Part shown: piece after piece, positions 15,875 to 48,264 of the stretch
Position numbering within the stretch: position 1 is the first letter of the stretch
Layout: each line of letters opens with the position of its first letter
Assembly: GCA_045616265.1 (NCBI GenBank)
Contig: JAZLGK010000211.1
Location: 5,056 to 69,055 of the forward strand
Direction of reading: 5' to 3'
DNA length: 64,000 nucleotides
DNA from: Candidatus Limivicinus sp.
GTDB taxonomy: Bacteria > Bacillota > Clostridia > Oscillospirales > Oscillospiraceae
Translations under genes and position numbers: made by a program
The notes under the pieces: generated by a model
What the model was told of the DNA's origin: nothing
Seen by the model: only the letters and a program-made list of their open reading frames with translations
Databases searched by the model: none

Positions 15875-17725
15875 TCAGAATTTCCATCCGAGATATTTTT
15901 TCAATATGGGCATCCACGAGAAGTCCGGGATGAGGATATCCGCACCAGCCAGCACAAGCCGTTCGCGCTTTTTGAGGTTGAGCCCGAAACGCTGATTTTC
16001 GTCACTAAGTACGCCGACAGTGAGGAAACCGTTTTTTCTGCCCTCGCGGATCTCTACCGGTCCGTCGCCGAAGACAACGGCACGGATGCTTTCTCCGTTT
16101 TCGGCGAAGCTGATACTCTTTATGATATTGCGCATGACAGTTTTTTTCGGGTCACTGGAAATATCTCCGACGGAACCGAATATACCGCCCGTGAACAGCT
16201 CGGATGTGCCGAAAGCGTCCGTTTCTTTCCTCACGTCCACAAGGTCGGTGCCGCTGGCAAGATACACCTTGATCCCCGCCTGTCCGAGACTTTCGATAAA
16301 CTCAAGGGAACCCTTCATGGTGAAATCGGAAGCATCGTTTATGCCTGCCGCTATTCTTGCGTATTTTTTATCGACCGCCCTGTTGAGAGCCGCCGTATAG
16401 ATCTTCTTGTATTCCGCCGCGGTTTTTATCTTATCCGCAGGAACATAGCCGTATCTTTTCACCATGTCCGCAAGCATCTGCATCTGCACGATGGTCTGAA
16501 TGCCCGTGGTCTTTTCGATCATGGCATCAATATCGGCATAGATGGCGGCAATTTTCTCCGCACTGAGGGAGGCATAGTAATCCCCCGTGATCGCTTCGAT
16601 CATGACGGCGCGCATGATTTTTTCCCAGCCGTGGCGGATGGTGGAAACGGTTCCGTCGTGGTCAAAGACAGCCACGTCCGGCTGACCGAAATGCACGGCG
16701 TCAGGATTTATGATCTCAATATCCGTGCCGTCAAGGTAGTTTGCCTGCCTTATATCCCCGGCAAGAGCGGGATTATAACGGTAATCCGGGTCGGAGAGAA
16801 GCTCTTTTGTCTCCTCCATACGGGGATGACCTGTCGCCCGGAGCGTTTTCGTGCTGACGGCGGCGGAGGCGTTGGCGAAGGGAAGCGCCTCTTCAAGCGC
16901 CTTTCCGGCGGCAAGAGAGCAGACAAGACCGGACAGAAAGGCATCTCCCGCTCCGACGGTATCGGTTGCCCAGATAGCGTTGATCCCCGGAACGGAGGAC
17001 AAAGTATGTCCGTCAAAGCCTATTGCACCGTCAGCGCCGAGAGTTATAACAACATTCGCTGATTCCCCGTAAAGCTTCACCAGTGCAGAGGCACATTCTT
17101 CCGGGGTTTCCGCGCCGGTAAGGGCTCTCGCCTCGGAGAGATTCATCTTATAGGAGCCGTTGGGATATAGAAGCTCCCTGCGGCTGTCGATCCACACAGG
17201 GACATTGACCTGTGAAAGAATTGCGGCAAGCCCCTTGCGGAAATACTCCGTATGGAGCGTGTTCGAGAACTGAGAATTGACAACGATCACATCATAGCGG
17301 TTGATCTTCTCCCGGAGTTTAGTAAGGATCGCGTCAAGATGCGCCTTGGAATAGACATTTTCCGCGCCGAGGTCGTATCTCGGAAGCTCACTGTCGGACT
17401 CGTCGTAGATTTTATGATAAACAAAGGTATCAAATCCGTCATATCCCGTGAAGCCATCGGTATTCACGCCGAAGCTGTTGAGAGAGTCTTTGAGAATATC
17501 GGCCCAGATGTCATTTCCGCAGGCGCCGTACAGATCACACTGCGCACCGAGGACGGCAATATTCACCGCCAGATTCCCGGCTCCGCCGGCTCCGCAGGAA
17601 TACCGTTTGATATAGTTGATGGGAAGTCCGGTTTCAACGGATATTTCACCGCTTTGTTCCGAAAAATAGTAGAAATCCAGTGCGGCGTCTCCGATAACGG
17701 CTATGCGGCAATCAGAAAAATTCAT
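15875..17725 (-). CDS. Bifunctional PfkB-family sugar(-phosphate) kinase (HldA/RfaE-domain-I-like) fused to a capped HAD-superfamily phosphatase or mutase domain
   Basis: N-terminal half has RIAVIGDAALDFYY, GGAGNLAVNIAVLGA and DTVGAGDAFLSGL. C-terminal half has HAD motif I VAVFDHDGTVS, motif II YLASGTD and motif IV VFGDGPVE. Confidence 0.7.
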   Translation of the reverse strand: MNFSDCRIAVIGDAALDFYYFSEQSGEISVETGLPINYIKRYSCGAGGAGNLAVNIAVLGAQCDLYGACGNDIWADILKDSLNSFGVNTDGFTGYDGFDTFVYHKIYDESDSELPRYDLGAENVYSKAHLDAILTKLREKINRYDVIVVNSQFSNTLHTEYFRKGLAAILSQVNVPVWIDSRRELLYPNGSYKMNLSEARALTGAETPEECASALVKLYGESANVVITLGADGAIGFDGHTLSSVPGINAIWATDTVGAGDAFLSGLVCSLAAGKALEEALPFANASAAVSTKTLRATGHPRMEETKELLSDPDYRYNPALAGDIRQANYLDGTDIEIINPDAVHFGQPDVAVFDHDGTVSTIRHGWEKIMRAVMIEAITGDYYASLSAEKIAAIYADIDAMIEKTTGIQTIVQMQMLADMVKRYGYVPADKIKTAAEYKKIYTAALNRAVDKKYARIAAGINDASDFTMKGSLEFIESLGQAGIKVYLASGTDLVDVRKETDAFGTSELFTGGIFGSVGDISSDPKKTVMRNIIKSISFAENGESIRAVVFGDGPVEIREGRKNGFLTVGVLSDENQRFGLNLKKRERLVLAGADILIPDFSWMPILKKYLGWKF

Positions 17726-17810: not shown

Positions 17811-17839
17811 ATTATACAGTCATCACCCTTTTTTGTCAA
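17811..17839 (-). promoter_or_regulatory. Consensus promoter of the kinase-HAD / DHS-like operon
   Basis: Minus strand reads TTGACA, 17-nt spacer, TATAAT. Confidence 0.6.
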
Positions 17840-44954: not shown

Positions 44955-45118
44955 GTAGACAAACCCCAAAGTCTGTCATTCCGAACCAGTGACCGATGTC
45001 ACTGGTGTGGGAATCCGTATCTCCAAAACGTTGAAATTACAGCAATGTCAAGGAGAACGGATTGCCACAACCAGTCTGAGGACTGGTTTCGCAATGACAA
45101 GAATGGCACTTTGTCTAC
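44955..45118. mobile_element. MITE-like non-coding element with ~64-bp imperfect terminal inverted repeats
   Basis: 44955-45018 aligns with the reverse complement of 45057-45118 (GTAGACAAA...GTCATT.CGAA.CCAGT...ACTGGT.GTGG.AATCCGT). It is flanked by two copies of the hairpin AACCGGGAAT(A/G)CCTCCCGGTT at 44927-44947 and 45126-45146. Confidence 0.6.
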
Positions 45119-45150
45119 ACCTTGTAACCGGGAATGCCTCCCGGTTTTTA

Positions 45151-45963
45151 TTATTCCTTCTTGCTTTTTGACATGATACGCAGAAGGCGGATAAAGAGGT
45201 TTGCAATGTCCATGTAGATATCCAGCGCACAGTCCACCGCGTTGTCAAGTGTGGGAGTGAACTGCTGGGAGCGGTGGATATCATAGGCTATATAGAGGCT
45301 GAAAAGTCCCGCCGCGATCCAGTCCGTGACTATCTGATCGACACGGAAGAGCAGCAGCACCACTTCGCAGACGATCAGTCCGATCAGACAGCCGAGCAGC
45401 GCTCCGCCGAGGTTTTTGAACAGCTCCGGGAAAGCGATACTCGTGCCCAGCATTCCGACCGAGATCAGCGTGGTGTAGATAAAAGCATCACGCACGACCT
45501 GAGAGTTGATACCGCCGTAAGCCTCCACCAGCGTGGACACCGTAAGGCCGAAGGGTATAACGATCATATTGTAACCCAGAAAGCTGACAAGCGGATTCCG
45601 GGAACGTCCGGCGATGTAGATTCCCGCAAAGCAGCACACAAAATACAATATGAGGAACAGAGCGGGATTCATCAGCCGGTAAACATTGCCGACCGTGGCA
45701 CACAGTACCGCGTTGACGATCAGTCCCCACAGCAGCACGGCGATGATCGCACAGTTATAGCCCCGGCGGGACAGCTGCTCAACACCGCTGTAATCCGCTG
45801 TGAGCCTTGCTTCCCTCGCTGCGGCGCCGATGGCGAAAACAGCCTCGGAGCTTTTCACCAGCGTATCCGCTTTATAATTATTGTTCTGCGGCAGCTTTCT
45901 TCCGCACTCCTCGCAGAATTTGCTGCCGTCATGGGTTTCTCCTCCGCAATACGGACAAATCAT
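45151..45963 (-). CDS. Bax-inhibitor-1/YccA family membrane protein with an N-terminal zinc ribbon
   Basis: Contains the zinc ribbon CPYCGGETHDGSKFCEECG, seven TM helices and the C-terminal DIYMDIANLFIRLLRIM. Confidence 0.75.
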   Translation of the reverse strand: MICPYCGGETHDGSKFCEECGRKLPQNNNYKADTLVKSSEAVFAIGAAAREARLTADYSGVEQLSRRGYNCAIIAVLLWGLIVNAVLCATVGNVYRLMNPALFLILYFVCCFAGIYIAGRSRNPLVSFLGYNMIVIPFGLTVSTLVEAYGGINSQVVRDAFIYTTLISVGMLGTSIAFPELFKNLGGALLGCLIGLIVCEVVLLLFRVDQIVTDWIAAGLFSLYIAYDIHRSQQFTPTLDNAVDCALDIYMDIANLFIRLLRIMSKSKKE

Positions 45964-46075
45964 AAGTTCACCCTCCGTTTTTTTCGATTTGCCCTATTTT
46001 ACTATATCGGAGATAATATTTCAATGGCGGTTTTCCGAGATACTTCAAAGCCCGCCCAAATATAAAAAGCCGCCC

Positions 46076-46104
46076 TTGACAATAAGAGCGGGTAAGAATA
46101 TAAT
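46076..46104 (+). promoter_or_regulatory. Perfect consensus promoter with no ORF behind it (drives the candidate antisense RNA)
   Basis: TTGACA, 17-nt spacer, TATAAT. Confidence 0.6.
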
Positions 46105-46110
46105 ACAAAA

Positions 46111-46203
46111 AAGGGACTGCGACAAGCGGTTGGCCCTTACAGAGATTTAGTTTTGCTTAAAGCACAAAACCGTCACCGTGCCGGGTGGCGGTTTGCTTTT
46201 ATC
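46111..46203 (+). ncRNA. Candidate ~90-nt antisense sRNA (putative type I antitoxin)
   Basis: It starts downstream of the consensus promoter, forms three hairpins and ends in AAACCGTCACC/GGTGGCGGTTT plus GCTTTTAT. It has no start codon and overlaps the 3' end of the minus-strand mini-ORF. Confidence 0.4.
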
Positions 46204-46253
46204 TGAATCGTAATGGTAAAATAACCAATATGAAAAGTCAGCGCCAAAGGCAT
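46173..46253 (-). CDS. 26-aa hydrophobic peptide MPLALTFHIGYFTITIQIKANRHPAR (candidate type I toxin)
   Basis: AAGGAGG lies 7 nt upstream of the ATG, and the SD is sequestered in a GAAA-capped hairpin (46258-46278). Translated by hand; it is below the ORF-track length cutoff. Confidence 0.4.
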   Translation of the reverse strand: MPLALTFHIGYFTITIQIKANRHPAR

Positions 46254-46327
46254 TTCAACACCTCCTTTCGGAGATGTGACCAACCGCCTGCCGTTGTGCA
46301 GTCCCCTGGTACGTATGTACCACACGC

Positions 46328-46356
46328 ATAATACCATATTTTTTTATTATAAACAA
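46328..46356 (-). promoter_or_regulatory. Promoter of the mini-ORF transcript
   Basis: Minus strand reads TTGTTT, 17-nt spacer (ending in the extended -10 TG), TATTAT. Confidence 0.45.
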
Positions 46357-46394
46357 CACTAAAAGCATCTTTTTCAGTTGCTTTTATTTTGCTC

Positions 46395-46423
46395 TTGATT
46401 TCCTACCAATCTTATGGTATATT
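46395..46423 (+). promoter_or_regulatory. Promoter of the Rrf2-iscS-iscU operon
   Basis: TTGATT, 17-nt spacer (ending in the extended -10 TG), TATATT. Confidence 0.5.
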
Positions 46424-46454
46424 AAATTCATAGGAATAGGAGATAATATCGATT

Positions 46455-46883
46455 ATGAATATAACAAGCAAAGGGCGGTATGCCCTTCGGGTGATGCTCG
46501 ATCTGGCGGAGAACAGTCAGGACAAGCCGATCTCTTTGAAAACCGTTGCCGACAGGCAGAATATTTCCATGAAATACCTTGAGGGTATCGTGGGAGAGAT
46601 GAAAAAGAATAATCTGCTGGAAAGTGTCCGCGGCAAGGAGGGCGGCTATCGGCTGACCTTGAGTCCGGATAAAATGACGGTGGGCCGTATTCTTCGCTGC
46701 GTGGAGGACAATCTTGCCCCGGTCTCCTGCATAAAACAGGGGAGCGTTTCGTGCGAAAAAGCCGATTTCTGCCGTACTCTTCCGATGTGGATGGAGCTGG
46801 ACGAGATCACCAACAATTATCTTGATACGATCACTCTCAACGATCTTCTGACCGGCGAGAAATGGAAAGATAATCGATTGTAA
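46455..46883 (+). CDS. Rrf2-family transcriptional regulator (IscR/CymR-like)
   Basis: The N-terminal ITSKGRYALRVMLDLAENSQDKPISLKTVADRQNISMKYLEGIV is a canonical Rrf2 wHTH. A Cys cluster (C..C.....C) is present. Confidence 0.85.
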   Translation: MNITSKGRYALRVMLDLAENSQDKPISLKTVADRQNISMKYLEGIVGEMKKNNLLESVRGKEGGYRLTLSPDKMTVGRILRCVEDNLAPVSCIKQGSVSCEKADFCRTLPMWMELDEITNNYLDTITLNDLLTGEKWKDNRL

Positions 46884-47008
46884 AACTAAAGCTTTACAAT
46901 CGAGAACTCGCGCTTATCGCATCGGGCTAAAGCCCTCTTTGGTCGGCGCGAGAGACTCGCATCGCTCGCCTCAGTGAGTTTTTGAGACGGCAGAGCTGTC
47001 TCAAAAAC
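46873..47008. repeat. Structured intergenic repeat, copy B (inverted relative to 25062-25193)
   Basis: Its reverse complement aligns with copy A. The terminal hairpin overlaps the last codons and stop of the Rrf2 gene. Confidence 0.7.
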
Positions 47009-47076
47009 ATAAAAAGATTATAAACAAGTTTTGCGTTATACGAATGATTGGAAACAAGGAAAGAAAGGAAAAAGAA

Positions 47077-48264
47077 ATGTTTGTTTACGCCGACAATGCC
47101 GCGACTACCAGCGTCAGCAAAACCGCGCTGGACGCGATGATACCGTATCTGACCGAGAAATACGGCAACCCCTCAAGCCTTTATGCTTTCGCGCAGGACG
47201 TGAAGGAAGGTCTGGAAGCCGCCCGCGAGACGGTCGCCAAATGCATAAACGCAAGCCCCAGGGAGATATACTTCACCTCCGGCGGAAGCGAGGCCGATAA
47301 TCAGGCGATCGTTTCAGCCGCCAAGGTGGGCGCAAGGAAGGGCAAAAAGCACATCGTCTCCACAAAGTTTGAGCACCACGCGGTTCTCCACACCCTGAAA
47401 AAGCTGGAAAAAGAGGGCTTTGAGGTAACGCTTCTTGATGTCCACGCGGATGGCGTTGTGACGGTCGAGGACGTGAAAAACGCGCTTCGTGAAGATACCT
47501 GCCTTGTGACGGTCATGTTTGCCAATAACGAGATCGGCACTGTGCAGCCCATCGCCGAGATCGGCGCTCTCTGCCGCGAGAAGAAGGTCCCCTTCCACAC
47601 GGACGCCGTGCAGGCCGCGGGACATATGCCCATTGACGTGGAGGCCATGAACATCGATATGCTCGCCATGTCCGGACACAAATTTCACGCTCCCAAGGGC
47701 GTCGGCGTCCTGTATGCCAAAAAGAATATGCCGCTTTTCAACATCATCGAGGGCGGCGCACAGGAAAAGGGCAAACGCGCCGGTACAGAGAATGTTGCGG
47801 GCATCGTCGCCATGGCGGCAGCACTGAAAGAATCCTGCGATAACATGGAGGAAAACACCGCAAAGATCATCCCCATGCGTGACAGGCTTTTTGCCGAGCT
47901 TTCCAAAATACCCCACAGCAAGATCAACGGCAGTCTGGAGCACCATGTCCCCGGCACGGTCAATATGTGCTTTGAGGGCATTGAGGGCGAATCCCTGCTG
48001 CTCATGCTCGATATGAACGGTATCTGTGCCTCTTCCGGCTCTGCCTGCACCTCCGGCTCCCTTGACCCCAGCCATGTGCTTCTGAGTCTCGGTTTGCCCC
48101 ATGAGGTCGCCCACGGTTCACTGCGGCTTTCCATCGGCGAGTACAACACCATGGAAGAGATCGACCACATTATCGAATGCGTTCCGAAGATCGTCGCAAG
48201 ACTGCGCGATATGTCACCGGTGTGGGATGAGCTTGAAAAAGGCGAGAGAAAACATCTTATTTAA
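47077..48264 (+). CDS. iscS: Cysteine desulfurase (NifS/IscS, class V aminotransferase)
   Basis: Contains the PLP-Lys motif [12 protein letters not shown] and the active-site loop [10 protein letters not shown]; ATG at 47077. Confidence 0.9.

What the first reader, a model, noticed from the sequence alone, without database searches (positions are those of the whole stretch)
46076..46356. Convergent mini-peptide / antisense-RNA module: candidate undescribed type I toxin-antitoxin
This module sits in the otherwise empty 490-bp gap between the BI-1 gene and the Rrf2 gene. On the minus strand there is a promoter TTGTTT-17-TATTAT, with an extended -10 TG at the end of the spacer (46328-46356). It is followed by a 5' UTR in which the AAGGAGG SD (46261-46267) sits in an 8-bp hairpin capped by a GAAA tetraloop (46258-46278). 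A 26-codon ORF then runs from 46253 to 46173 and encodes MPLALTFHIGYFTITIQIKANRHPAR, a hydrophobic helix with a basic tail. On the plus strand a perfect TTGACA-17-TATAAT promoter (46076-46104) has no ORF behind it. The transcript would run about 90 nt into a hairpin and U-run (46165-46203) that lies inside the 3' end of the peptide ORF, so the two transcripts converge and overlap. An imperfect inverted repeat of about 20 bp (46113-46133 versus 46280-46305) is followed on the minus strand by a T-run at about 46105. This would let a longer peptide mRNA pair its own 5' and 3' ends. A small hydrophobic peptide, SD occlusion, 5'-3' fold-back and a 3'-overlapping antisense RNA are the hallmarks of type I TA loci such as hok/sok, txpA/ratA and bsrG/SR4. 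I do not recognise the peptide as a member of any named family.
Basis: partly seen in the sequence, partly recalled or inferred. Interest (0 to 1): 0.7.

Follow-up and report, generated by a model that had tools for sequence, protein, structure and literature searches.

The report
Unannotated small-peptide/antisense-RNA toxin-antitoxin-like module
This 300-bp gap holds a real pair of convergent mini-genes, a 26-codon peptide gene and an antisense small RNA. [quoted passage not shown]

Summary
I collected 64 distinct homologous modules from gut phage/prophage contigs, from Vescimonas fastidiosa (5-6 copies) and from an orthologous locus.

- **sRNA promoter:** the plus-strand promoter is 12/12 consensus in 55 of 64 modules.
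- **ORF:** the minus-strand ORF is intact in 50/50 aligned members. Its indels are only 3 or 6 nt, and substitutions sit mainly at third codon positions.
- **RNA structure:** the SD hairpin, the shared hairpin and a 22-bp 5'-3' helix all show compensatory changes. G-U pairs place the long helix on the peptide mRNA.
- **mRNA extent:** the mRNA's own terminator lies beyond the sRNA gene and encloses the sRNA -35 box. The ~93-nt sRNA is therefore fully antisense to the mRNA 3' end.
- **Cassette swap:** in two phage contigs with identical flanks, the inner cassette instead encodes a Hol_Tox (TxpA/BsrG-type) type I toxin.

No model in Rfam, Pfam, NCBIfam or PADLOC matches, and PHROGs gives only one weak hit for a relative.

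Two caveats remain. Toxicity and transcription are untested. The peptide is not a plausible transmembrane helix.

Verdict: a new family of a known kind, type I TA-like.

The parts
46062..46091 (-). Predicted intrinsic terminator of the peptide (toxin) mRNA: hairpin 46091-46070 plus U-run. The hairpin loop and stem contain the sRNA -35 box.
   Evidence: The terminator scan lists it and it folds in the 260-nt mRNA. An equivalent hairpin plus U-run lies 20-50 nt past the 3' arm in 49 of 64 family members, usually enclosing TTGACA.
46076..46104 (+). Promoter of the antisense sRNA: TTGACA, 17-nt spacer, TATAAT. Predicted start is near 46111.
   Evidence: It scores 12/12, against 0.01 expected per window. 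Both hexamers are kept while the spacer varies. The promoter is 12/12 in 55 of 64 members and 11/12 in the other 9.
46111..46203 (+). Predicted ~93-nt antisense sRNA (putative antitoxin): 5' hairpin (arm), variable middle region, terminator hairpin and U-run.
   Evidence: MFE is -35 kcal/mol with z -3.6. The promoter-to-terminator unit is conserved in all members, and it is retained alone in MT838975.
46111..46136 (-). 3' arm of the long-range 5'-3' helix of the peptide mRNA. It is the complement of the sRNA 5' end.
   Evidence: RNAalifold places a 22-bp helix here and 9 of its pairs show compensatory changes. On the minus strand 96.4% of cells pair, against 87.7% on the plus strand.
46137..46166 (.). 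Variable region. It forms a hairpin whose sequence and length differ between family members.
   Evidence: These alignment columns are unconserved and carry indels of any length.
46167..46194 (.). Shared hairpin. On the plus strand it is the sRNA terminator, followed by GCUUUUAU. On the minus strand it holds the last ORF codons and the TGA stop (46175-46173).
   Evidence: The terminator scan lists it. It has 11 pairs, 99.6% of cells pair, and 3 pairs show compensatory changes in 7-19 sequences.
46173..46253 (-). 26-codon ORF encoding MPLALTFHIGYFTITIQIKANRHPAR (putative toxin slot).
   Evidence: The ORF is intact in 50/50 members at 25-29 aa, and all 131 gap runs inside it are 3 or 6 nt. Variable sites by codon position are 5/1/11. 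Synonymous versus non-synonymous differences are 2644:1308 in frame, against 693:3285 and 135:3887 in the other two frames.
46258..46277 (-). Hairpin that sequesters the SD. It has 8 bp and a GAAA loop, with AAGGAGG at 46267-46261. The ATG lies 7 nt downstream.
   Evidence: The hairpin forms in both folds. In the family, 94.7% of cells pair. One pair changes CG to UA in 7 sequences, and the U-G wobbles work only on the minus strand.
46278..46307 (-). 5' arm of the long-range helix of the peptide mRNA, with a 5-nt bulge (ACAAC).
   Evidence: Supported by the folds and covariation counts. One G-U pair is conserved in 45/50 sequences and would be an A-C mismatch on the plus strand.
46308..46321 (-). 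5'-terminal hairpin of the peptide mRNA (GGUACAUACGUACC).
   Evidence: The hairpin forms in both folds. Many but not all relatives have an unrelated hairpin at the same place.
46328..46356 (-). Promoter of the peptide mRNA: TTGTTT, 17-nt spacer, TATTAT, with TGG just upstream of the -10.
   Evidence: Read from the sequence. Relatives have TTGACA with TAAGAT, TATTCT or TATGAT at the same place. The family mean is 8.9/12 and 39 of 64 have a TG extension.

Best explanation
The gap holds a type I toxin-antitoxin-like module from a previously unannotated family. The family is common in gut Oscillospiraceae and related Clostridia and in their temperate phages.

**Peptide mRNA (minus strand).** A moderate promoter with an extended -10 (46356-46328) makes an mRNA of about 260 nt, from about 46321 to about 46062. 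This mRNA folds so that translation is held off. Its 5' and 3' regions form a helix of about 24 bp. Directly after that helix, the Shine-Dalgarno sequence is locked in an 8-bp GNRA-capped hairpin, 7 nt before the ATG of a 26-codon ORF.

**Antisense sRNA (plus strand).** A consensus promoter (46076-46104) makes an sRNA of about 93 nt that ends at the hairpin at 46167-46194. The mRNA runs through the whole sRNA gene to a terminator that encloses the sRNA -35 box. The sRNA is therefore perfectly complementary to the last 9-10 codons and the whole 3' UTR of the mRNA.

**Inferred action.** By analogy with txpA/RatA and bsrG/SR4, the abundant sRNA would pair with the mRNA 3' region, probably starting at the complementary hairpin loops. 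The long duplex would be cut (by RNase III) and the mRNA degraded. Convergent transcription through each other's promoter and terminator would add interference. If the sRNA is lost, the stable folded mRNA would be processed or opened and the peptide made.

**Shown here in silico:** both promoters, the coding status of the ORF, the three helices and their strand, the geometry of the overlap, and the family distribution.

**Inferred only:** transcription itself, duplex-triggered decay, and toxicity of the peptide.
For: **Homologues.** blastn found copies in three human-gut 'Bacteriophage sp.' contigs and 5-6 copies in Vescimonas fastidiosa pMM35_01. Two viral-contig pattern scans gave more than 100 loci, of which 64 are distinct full modules.

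**sRNA promoter.** It is TTGACA/TATAAT at 12/12 in 55 of 64 modules and 11/12 in the rest, with free spacers. The peptide promoter averages 8.9/12.

**Coding signal.**
- The ORF is intact in 50/50 aligned members.
- Gap runs inside the ORF are all 3 or 6 nt (131 runs), whereas outside it they are mostly 1-2 nt.
- Variable sites fall 5/1/11 by codon position.
- Synonymous versus non-synonymous differences are 2644:1308 in frame, against 693:3285 and 135:3887 off frame.

**Structure.** The consensus has 39 pairs. 97% of cells are paired and 13 pairs carry compensatory changes. No shuffle out of 500 reaches the observed value on four of the five measures. Structures slid by 1-3 columns pair only 34-48%.

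**Strand of the long helix.** It pairs in 96.4% of cells on the mRNA strand and 87.7% on the sRNA strand, with 106 G-U cells against 11 A-C cells. The peptide mRNA must therefore include the 3' arm.

**mRNA terminator.** A minus-strand terminator lies beyond the arm in 49 of 64 members and in the window.

**Cassette swap.** L102 and L085 have 100% identical flanks (sRNA promoter with 5' arm, and 3' arm with peptide promoter) but unrelated inner cassettes. One encodes the MRITLHIG-type peptide. The other encodes MVTYSDLIQIGILIVGILGLILQITKRK, which passes the Pfam Hol_Tox (PF16935) threshold at 24.5 bits against a cut-off of 23.3. TxpA-family type I toxins are the proteins annotated as 'holin-like toxins' (PMC2887945).

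**Architecture.** The layout matches that of Gram-positive type I TAs, where the asRNA lies on the 3' side and overlaps the ORF end (PMC8594479).

**Context.** In phage contigs the module sits next to endolysin and integrase genes. In V. fastidiosa it is multicopy and lies between core genes. One degenerate copy keeps only the sRNA. The orthologous locus L147 keeps the module at 97.3% identity with one conservative peptide change.
Against: - **No experimental data:** neither transcript nor any toxicity has been observed.
- **Atypical peptide:** its best 19-residue hydropathy is 0.5-1.0, against 2.1-2.4 for the Hol_Tox cargo. The longest run free of charged, His or Pro residues is 7-10 residues. 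Many members have R or P in the middle. It is unlikely to be the usual single-pass membrane toxin.
- **C-terminal NRH motif:** this invariant motif may be conserved only because it lies in the hairpin stem. One relative stops before it.
- **Biased sampling:** the family was collected with patterns that fix part of the 5' arm or the hairpin stem. Invariance of those segments is therefore partly by construction. Covariation in the arms comes mainly from the second scan.
- **Weak promoter in the window:** the peptide promoter has a poor -35 (3/6).
- **No defence-system match:** PADLOC gave no hit.
Confidence: 0.65

Rival explanations
1. It is a real small-protein gene controlled by a cis-antisense RNA, but the peptide is not a toxin. 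It could be a prophage-type accessory peptide, such as a lysis-timing or antiholin-like factor, a superinfection-exclusion factor, or a small regulator that binds a protein or nucleic acid through its basic tail. In that case the sRNA only tunes its expression.
For: The peptide lacks a TM-length hydrophobic segment. Its alternating I/T/L/H/I and F/T/V/T/I/I/V pattern with a basic tail looks like an amphipathic beta-hairpin rather than a pore-forming helix. In phage contigs the modules sit beside endolysin and integrase genes, where accessory 'moron' genes of many kinds are found. No toxicity data exist.
Against: The same scaffold, with identical flanks, carries a Hol_Tox/TxpA-type toxin in the same slot. 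The layered repression is the signature of genes whose product is dangerous: a consensus antisense promoter against a weaker sense promoter, SD sequestration and 5'-3' fold-back. Multicopy chromosomal spread and an orphan sRNA copy also fit TA behaviour.
Confidence: 0.25
2. It is a structured non-coding RNA on the minus strand (about 200-260 nt, closed by the long helix), and the small ORF is incidental.
For: The fold is very stable, with z of -7.0 and -7.3. The helices show covariation.
Against: The ORF shows clear protein-level selection. It is intact in 50/50 members, its indels are only multiples of 3, and third-position variation dominates with a syn:nonsyn ratio that reverses in the other frames. 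The SD and ATG are conserved at the right spacing. No Rfam family matches.
Confidence: 0.04
3. It is a miniature inverted-repeat mobile element (MITE-like repeat). Its terminal inverted repeats are the two arms, and the promoters and ORF are chance features.
For: It has an imperfect inverted repeat of about 25 bp. It is multicopy and intergenic in V. fastidiosa and in many unrelated contexts. It was not detected by sequence search in the 80 Rrf2-anchored loci, where upstream synteny is mostly not kept.
Against: Homology between copies extends beyond the arms to both promoters and to the outer terminators. The arms show RNA-type compensatory changes, and their G-U pairs work on one strand only. 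The interior is under coding selection. No transposase-related feature or target duplication was seen in the window sequence.
Confidence: 0.03
4. It is a cis-regulatory leader (riboswitch or attenuator) of the downstream BI-1-like gene, or of the divergent iscR operon.
For: On the minus strand, promoter, structured RNA and terminator precede the BI-1-like gene.
Against: The same module occurs next to unrelated genes: pnp, nadE, endolysins and integrases. The BI-1 homologue in L146 has different sequence where the module would begin, though only about 120 nt of that contig are available upstream. BI-1 has its own promoter-like site after the terminator.
Confidence: 0.02

Closest known systems
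txpA/RatA (B. subtilis skin element) and bsrG/SR4 (SPbeta prophage) type I TA systems
   Same: - The genes are convergent.
- The antisense RNA lies on the 3' side and overlaps the end of the ORF and the 3' UTR (PMC8594479).
- Relatives are carried on prophages.
- The SD sits in a helix.
- Sister copies of this very scaffold encode a Hol_Tox/TxpA-BsrG-type peptide.
   Different: - The window's peptide has no Hol_Tox match and no TM-length hydrophobic stretch.
- No Rfam antitoxin family matches.
- The mRNA has a long 5'-3' closing helix.
- The mRNA terminator encloses the antitoxin -35 box, so the sRNA lies entirely inside the mRNA.
hok/Sok (plasmid R1) and aapA1/IsoA1 (Helicobacter pylori)
   Same: The full-length toxin mRNA is closed by a 5'-3' long-distance interaction and has a sequestered SD, which implies a translationally inert primary transcript (own knowledge; listed as family descriptors in PMC8594479). 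That helix is shown here with covariation.
   Different: - In those systems the antisense RNA targets the 5' leader or translation start region. Here it covers the 3' arm and 3' UTR.
- There is no mok-like overlapping frame.
- Peptides and RNAs are unrelated.
- The hosts here are Gram-positive Clostridia.
Clostridioides difficile prophage and CRISPR-adjacent type I TAs (for example CD2517.1/RCd8; PMC5961336)
   Same: They are Clostridia type I modules with small ORFs and antisense RNAs, enriched in prophages and present in multiple copies (own knowledge; the paper was listed but not read).
   Different: By my recollection the C. difficile toxins are about 50-aa hydrophobic peptides. No sequence or RNA-model similarity was detected here.

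Membership tests
Type I toxin-antitoxin system (general definition) | Small (<60 aa) ORF that really is protein-coding | tested here: met
   The ORF is intact in 50/50 members, its indels are only 3 or 6 nt, and it shows third-position bias with a frame-specific syn:nonsyn ratio.
Type I toxin-antitoxin system (general definition) | Cis-encoded antisense RNA gene with its own promoter and terminator, complementary to the toxin mRNA | tested here: met
   A consensus promoter is conserved in 64/64 members at 11 or 12 of 12, followed by a terminator hairpin with covariation. Overlap follows from the geometry. Transcription itself was not observed.
Type I toxin-antitoxin system (general definition) | The peptide is toxic when expressed, and the RNA neutralises it | not testable with these tools
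   This needs inducible expression with and without the sRNA.
Type I toxin-antitoxin system (general definition) | Toxin mRNA structure that blocks translation (SD sequestration and/or a 5'-3' interaction) | tested here: met
   The SD hairpin and a 22-bp long-range helix are conserved with compensatory changes.
Type I toxin-antitoxin system (general definition) | Typical, though not universal: a hydrophobic single-pass membrane peptide | tested here: not met
   The best 19-residue hydropathy is 0.99 in the window peptide and 0.5-0.8 in relatives, against 2.1-2.4 for the Hol_Tox cargo.
TxpA/RatA - BsrG/SR4 family (Pfam PF16935 Hol_Tox) | The toxin matches Hol_Tox | tested here: not met
   The window peptide and the other MRITLHIG-type peptides tested gave no Pfam hit at the thresholds used: E<=0.01 for the window peptide and E<=10 for three of them including the window peptide. 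Only the alternative cargo of sister copies matches, at 24.5 bits against a cut-off of 23.3.
TxpA/RatA - BsrG/SR4 family (Pfam PF16935 Hol_Tox) | The antisense RNA is convergent, lies on the 3' side and overlaps the ORF end | tested here: met
   The sRNA terminator hairpin contains the last ORF codons and the stop codon.
TxpA/RatA - BsrG/SR4 family (Pfam PF16935 Hol_Tox) | The antitoxin RNA is homologous to RatA, SR4 or another Rfam type I antitoxin family | tested here: not met
   No Rfam match at E<=1 over the region, and none at E<=0.1 over six family loci.
hok/Sok and AapA/IsoA-type systems | 5'-3' long-distance interaction in the full-length toxin mRNA | tested here: met
   The helix is supported by covariation and by the strand test.
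hok/Sok and AapA/IsoA-type systems | The antisense RNA targets the 5' leader or start region, and the peptide is of the Hok or AapA family | tested here: not met
   The sRNA covers the 3' end. No Pfam or NCBIfam match was found.
Known structured ncRNA (any Rfam family) | A match to a covariance model | tested here: not met
   No match was found over the module.
MITE-like repeat | Terminal inverted repeats at the element ends and a non-coding interior | tested here: not met
   Homology extends outside the repeats to the promoters and terminators. The interior is under coding selection.

The most novel reading that the evidence does not exclude
The MRITLHIG/MPITLTFHIG peptides would be a new class of type I toxin that is not a transmembrane helix. 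They are 25-29 residues long, with an alternating hydrophobic/polar pattern, a central turn and a basic tail, which suggests an amphipathic beta-hairpin. They may act by oligomerising or by binding a non-membrane target. They are housed in a recombination-swappable 'cassette' scaffold, whose conserved arms and promoters accept unrelated toxins, and this scaffold spreads through gut Clostridia and their temperate phages.
Probability: 0.3. Interest if true: 0.75.

Novelty: new member of a known kind. Interest (0 to 1): 0.6.

Why it matters
Type I TA systems are poorly charted outside Enterobacteria, Bacilli, Helicobacter and C. difficile. Their toxins are too short to be called by gene finders and their RNAs evolve quickly.

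This family appears abundant in human and animal gut Clostridia and their prophages, yet it is essentially absent from public annotation. Only 2 of 10 exact peptides are in a 15-billion-protein collection, and both are unnamed. No Rfam, Pfam or NCBIfam model matches.

The family offers three things:
- a well-defined RNA architecture to test, with a 3'-overlapping antisense RNA, a 5'-3' closure, and a toxin terminator that encloses the antitoxin -35 box;
- a natural cassette swap that links an unknown peptide to a known toxin family;
- a cultured host with several copies, Vescimonas fastidiosa MM35.

If the peptide is toxic without being a membrane helix, that would widen the known range of type I toxin mechanisms. 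The family would also supply annotation models for prophage maintenance or defence modules in gut metagenomes.

Tried and rejected
- **Rfam:** searched at E<=1 on 45000-47500, at gathering threshold on the whole window, and at E<=0.1 on six family loci. Nothing matched over the module.
- **Exact look-up of the window's Rrf2 protein:** not on record.
- **Rrf2-anchored genome-contig scan:** it returned 80 loci of Oscillospiraceae, Lachnospiraceae and similar MAGs. blastn and nhmmer found no copy of the module, and upstream synteny is mostly not kept.
- **First viral pattern:** arm plus hairpin half with a 20-50 nt gap was too strict and gave 0 hits.
- **Peptide searches:**
  - Pfam, NCBIfam and PADLOC gave no family for the window-type peptides.
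  - PHROGs gave one weak hit to phrog_4193 (unknown function, E=0.0033) for a 27-aa relative.
  - The peptides are below the 30-aa minimum stated for structure prediction, so no job was submitted.
- **Literature:** full-text searches for peptide motifs found nothing. Searches pairing 'type I toxin-antitoxin' with Oscillospiraceae or Faecalibacterium returned no paper whose title or abstract concerns such a module.
- **Rejected readings:** riboswitch or leader of BI-1 or iscR (no gene association), 6S, SRP or other housekeeping ncRNA (no Rfam hit, coding signal), and MITE.
- **The 54-aa upstream extension of the ORF** (46337 start) was rejected. It begins inside the promoter, and 1-2-nt indels in the 5' UTR of relatives break it.
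- **The second perfect promoter in the window** (17811-17839) simply drives a 616-aa gene.
Full report
**1. The observation**

The 490-bp gap lies between a zinc-ribbon/Bax-inhibitor-1 family gene (45151-45963, minus) and an Rrf2 regulator followed by iscS and iscU.
- A 12/12 plus-strand promoter lies at 46076-46104. Two such sites occur in the window against 0.01 expected, and the other one drives an ordinary gene.
- A plus-strand terminator hairpin lies at 46167-46194.
- A 26-codon minus-strand ORF runs from 46253 to 46173.
- An AAGGAGG sits inside an 8-bp hairpin with a GAAA loop.
- A minus-strand promoter TTGTTT-17-TATTAT has a TG extension.
- A long imperfect inverted repeat is present.
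- Both strands fold far better than shuffles, with z of -5.6 and -7.0.
- No Rfam family matches at E<=1, and none matches anywhere in the window at gathering threshold.

**2. Finding relatives**

Synteny through the Rrf2 gene led nowhere. The scan returned 80 MAG loci, with a best hit at 73% identity to an Oscillospiraceae/Ruminococcaceae-like MAG. The upstream neighbourhoods differ and none holds a copy of the element.

Direct blastn found the element elsewhere.
- Three human-faecal 'Bacteriophage sp.' contigs carry it.
- Vescimonas fastidiosa pMM35_01 carries 5-6 copies, which lie between core genes such as HTH|pnp and LysR|nadE.

The first five-way alignment already showed the key pattern.
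- The plus-strand -35 and -10 hexamers are invariant while the spacer varies freely.
- The two arms and the terminator hairpin are conserved.
- One copy (MT838975) keeps only the promoter, sRNA and terminator.

Two pattern scans of IMG/VR viral contigs then gave more than 100 loci, of which 64 are distinct complete modules.

A contig whose BI-1 protein is 79% identical (L147) has the same BI-1/iscR synteny. It keeps the module at 97.3% identity, with one peptide change, A4T.

**3. The ORF is a gene**

The peptides form one family.
- The commonest form is MRITLHIG[PRA]FTVTIIVK[SR]RNRH[PS][AG][RK].
- The window type is MPIT[IL]T[LF]HI....
- Rarer forms include MRFTLTFHIGHKTVTLSLVVKSKNRHPGR.

The coding signal is clear.
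- All 50 aligned members have an intact 25-29-codon frame.
- All 131 gap runs inside the ORF are 3 or 6 nt long. In the UTRs the gap runs are mostly 1 or 2 nt.
- Among 31 distinct 25-codon alleles, variable sites fall 5/1/11 on codon positions 1/2/3 for codons 2-17.
- Pairwise codon differences are 2644 synonymous against 1308 non-synonymous in frame. In the other two frames the counts are 693:3285 and 135:3887.

This excludes a purely non-coding RNA.

**4. RNA structure and strand**

I aligned 50 members as the minus-strand RNA (A3). RNAalifold predicts three elements:
- a 22-bp helix joining the 5' end to a segment about 170 nt downstream;
- a 6-8-bp hairpin that holds the SD;
- an 11-bp hairpin that holds the last codons and the stop codon.

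Counting pairs gives strong support.
- 97.0% of cells are paired.
- 13 pairs show compensatory changes, spread over 72 cells.
- No shuffle out of 500 reaches the observed value on four of the five measures.
- Structures slid by 1-3 columns pair only 34-48%.

The long helix belongs to the peptide mRNA. It pairs in 96.4% of cells on that strand against 87.7% on the sRNA strand, with 106 G-U cells against 11 A-C cells. One G-U pair is conserved in 45/50 sequences. The mRNA must therefore read through the shared hairpin, which has no U-tract on that strand, to include the 3' arm.

A proper minus-strand terminator (hairpin plus U-run) follows 20-50 nt later in 49 of 64 members, usually with the sRNA's TTGACA inside its stem or loop. 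In the window it lies at 46091-46062.

The predicted mRNA of about 260 nt folds at -102 kcal/mol with z -7.3. The 93-nt sRNA folds into a 5' hairpin, a small middle hairpin and the terminator, with z -3.6.

**5. Promoters**

The sRNA promoter is 12/12 consensus in 55 of 64 members and 11/12 in the other 9. The peptide promoter averages 8.9/12 and often has a TG extension, in 39 of 64. A strong antisense promoter set against a weaker sense promoter is what I expect of type I TA loci, from my own knowledge.

**6. Link to a known toxin family**

Six distinct copies carry a different ORF in the same scaffold. Phage contigs L102 and L085 show this most clearly. Their flanks are 100% identical: the sRNA promoter with the 5' arm on one side, and the 3' arm, 5' hairpin and peptide promoter on the other. 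The inner cassette of about 160 nt is unrelated.

One cassette encodes the MRITLHIG peptide. The other encodes MVTYSDLIQIGILIVGILGLILQITKRK, which passes the Pfam threshold for Hol_Tox (PF16935), at 24.5 bits against 23.3. TxpA-family type I toxins are the proteins that had been annotated as 'holin-like toxins' (PMC2887945). The unknown peptide therefore occupies the slot that a recognised type I toxin occupies in sister elements.

The geometry matches that of the Gram-positive families TxpA/RatA, BsrE/G/H, YonT and SprG/SprF, where the asRNA lies on the 3' side and overlaps the ORF end. A 5'-3' long-distance interaction and SD sequestration are used as descriptors of type I toxin mRNAs (PMC8594479).

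**7. Context**

In viral contigs the modules sit in temperate-phage accessory regions beside endolysin (Amidase_2 or Amidase_3) and integrase genes. One contig also has a terminase. One contig (L132) has two modules about 1 kb apart, and their arms differ by compensatory changes.

In the window and in V. fastidiosa the copies are solitary and lie between housekeeping genes.

**8. What does not fit**

The window-type peptides are not plausible transmembrane helices.
- Their best 19-residue hydropathy is 0.5-1.0, against 2.1-2.4 for the Hol_Tox cargo. BsrG and Fst sequences recalled from memory score 2.2.
- The hydrophobic stretch is interrupted by H, R or P.
- The pattern of alternating hydrophobic and polar residues on either side of a G-x-F turn, with a basic tail, suggests a beta-hairpin. 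This is inference only. The peptides are below the 30-aa minimum for structure prediction.

The invariant NRH motif lies in the hairpin stem, and one relative lacks it, so it may reflect RNA rather than protein constraint.

The sampling was biased by the search patterns. Transcription and toxicity are untested.

**9. Known or new**

No database model matches.
- Rfam, Pfam, NCBIfam and PADLOC gave nothing.
- PHROGs gave one weak hit to a family of unknown function.
- Only 2 of 10 exact peptides exist in a 15-billion-protein collection, and neither has a name.

Full-text searches for the peptide motifs found nothing. Searches for type I TAs in Oscillospiraceae or Faecalibacterium returned no paper whose title or abstract concerns such a module.

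I therefore file it as a new family of a known kind. It is built like a type I TA system. It is closest in layout to txpA/RatA and bsrG/SR4, with a hok/aapA-like 5'-3' closure. It is not a member of those families by sequence.

**10. Verdict**

- Confidence is about 0.9 that this is a real convergent peptide-gene/antisense-RNA pair.
- Confidence is about 0.65 that it works as a toxin-antitoxin.
- Interest is 0.6.

Noticed in passing
L102 1234-1580 versus L085 7505-7851: Two phage contigs have 100% identical module flanks but unrelated inner cassettes of about 160 nt (MRITLHIG-type against a Hol_Tox-type peptide). This implies cassette exchange by recombination at the conserved arms.
   Followed up: yes
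window 46062-46454 versus L147: The module is 97.3% identical between the two genomes, and the 98 nt up to the Rrf2 start codon are 100% identical. The flanking genes are only 82-90% identical (BI-1 81.6%, Rrf2 87.4%, iscS 89.6%). A non-coding stretch that is better conserved than its neighbouring genes suggests recent exchange or very strong constraint.
   Followed up: partly
L084 (MT838975) about 2500-2700: This degenerate copy keeps only the consensus promoter, the sRNA and its terminator. Homology is lost about 20 nt after the terminator, so there is no peptide ORF. It may be an orphan antitoxin.
   Followed up: partly
L132, two modules about 1 kb apart (one at 928-1125): Two modules lie in tandem in one viral contig. 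Their long-range arms differ by compensatory changes: CTGCGACAAG/CTGCC against CTGCCGATAAG/CTACC...GGCAG.
   Followed up: partly
L085 8964-9016 (+) and L102 71-124 (-): RAGATH-31 RNA (RF03101) matches at 73.7 and 71.6 bits against a gathering score of 71.8. The sites are about 1.2 kb from the module in these phage contigs.
   Followed up: no
L145 94-975: This contig's BI-1 gene is 99.4% identical to the window's. It has an HNH-endonuclease gene directly upstream instead of the module and the iscR operon. This is either a structural variant or a mis-assembly.
   Followed up: no
L081 and L240 (Vescimonas fastidiosa NZ_AP023416, 347020-347237 and 308856-309066): A cultured human-gut isolate carries 5-6 copies on its 861-kb second replicon. 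They lie in unannotated gaps between core genes (HTH|pnp and LysR|nadE). This makes it a convenient organism for experiments.
   Followed up: partly
window 17811-17839 (-): This is the only other perfect TTGACA-17-TATAAT site in the window. It lies about 85 nt upstream of a 616-aa ORF (start at 17725), so it is an ordinary strong promoter.
   Followed up: yes
Many family loci, for example L088, L094, L118 and L127, just outside the peptide promoter: Plus-strand hairpin plus T-run terminators lie immediately beyond the peptide promoter (for example GCCGC...GCGGCTTTT). The module is therefore insulated by terminators on both sides. The window copy lacks an obvious one.
   Followed up: no
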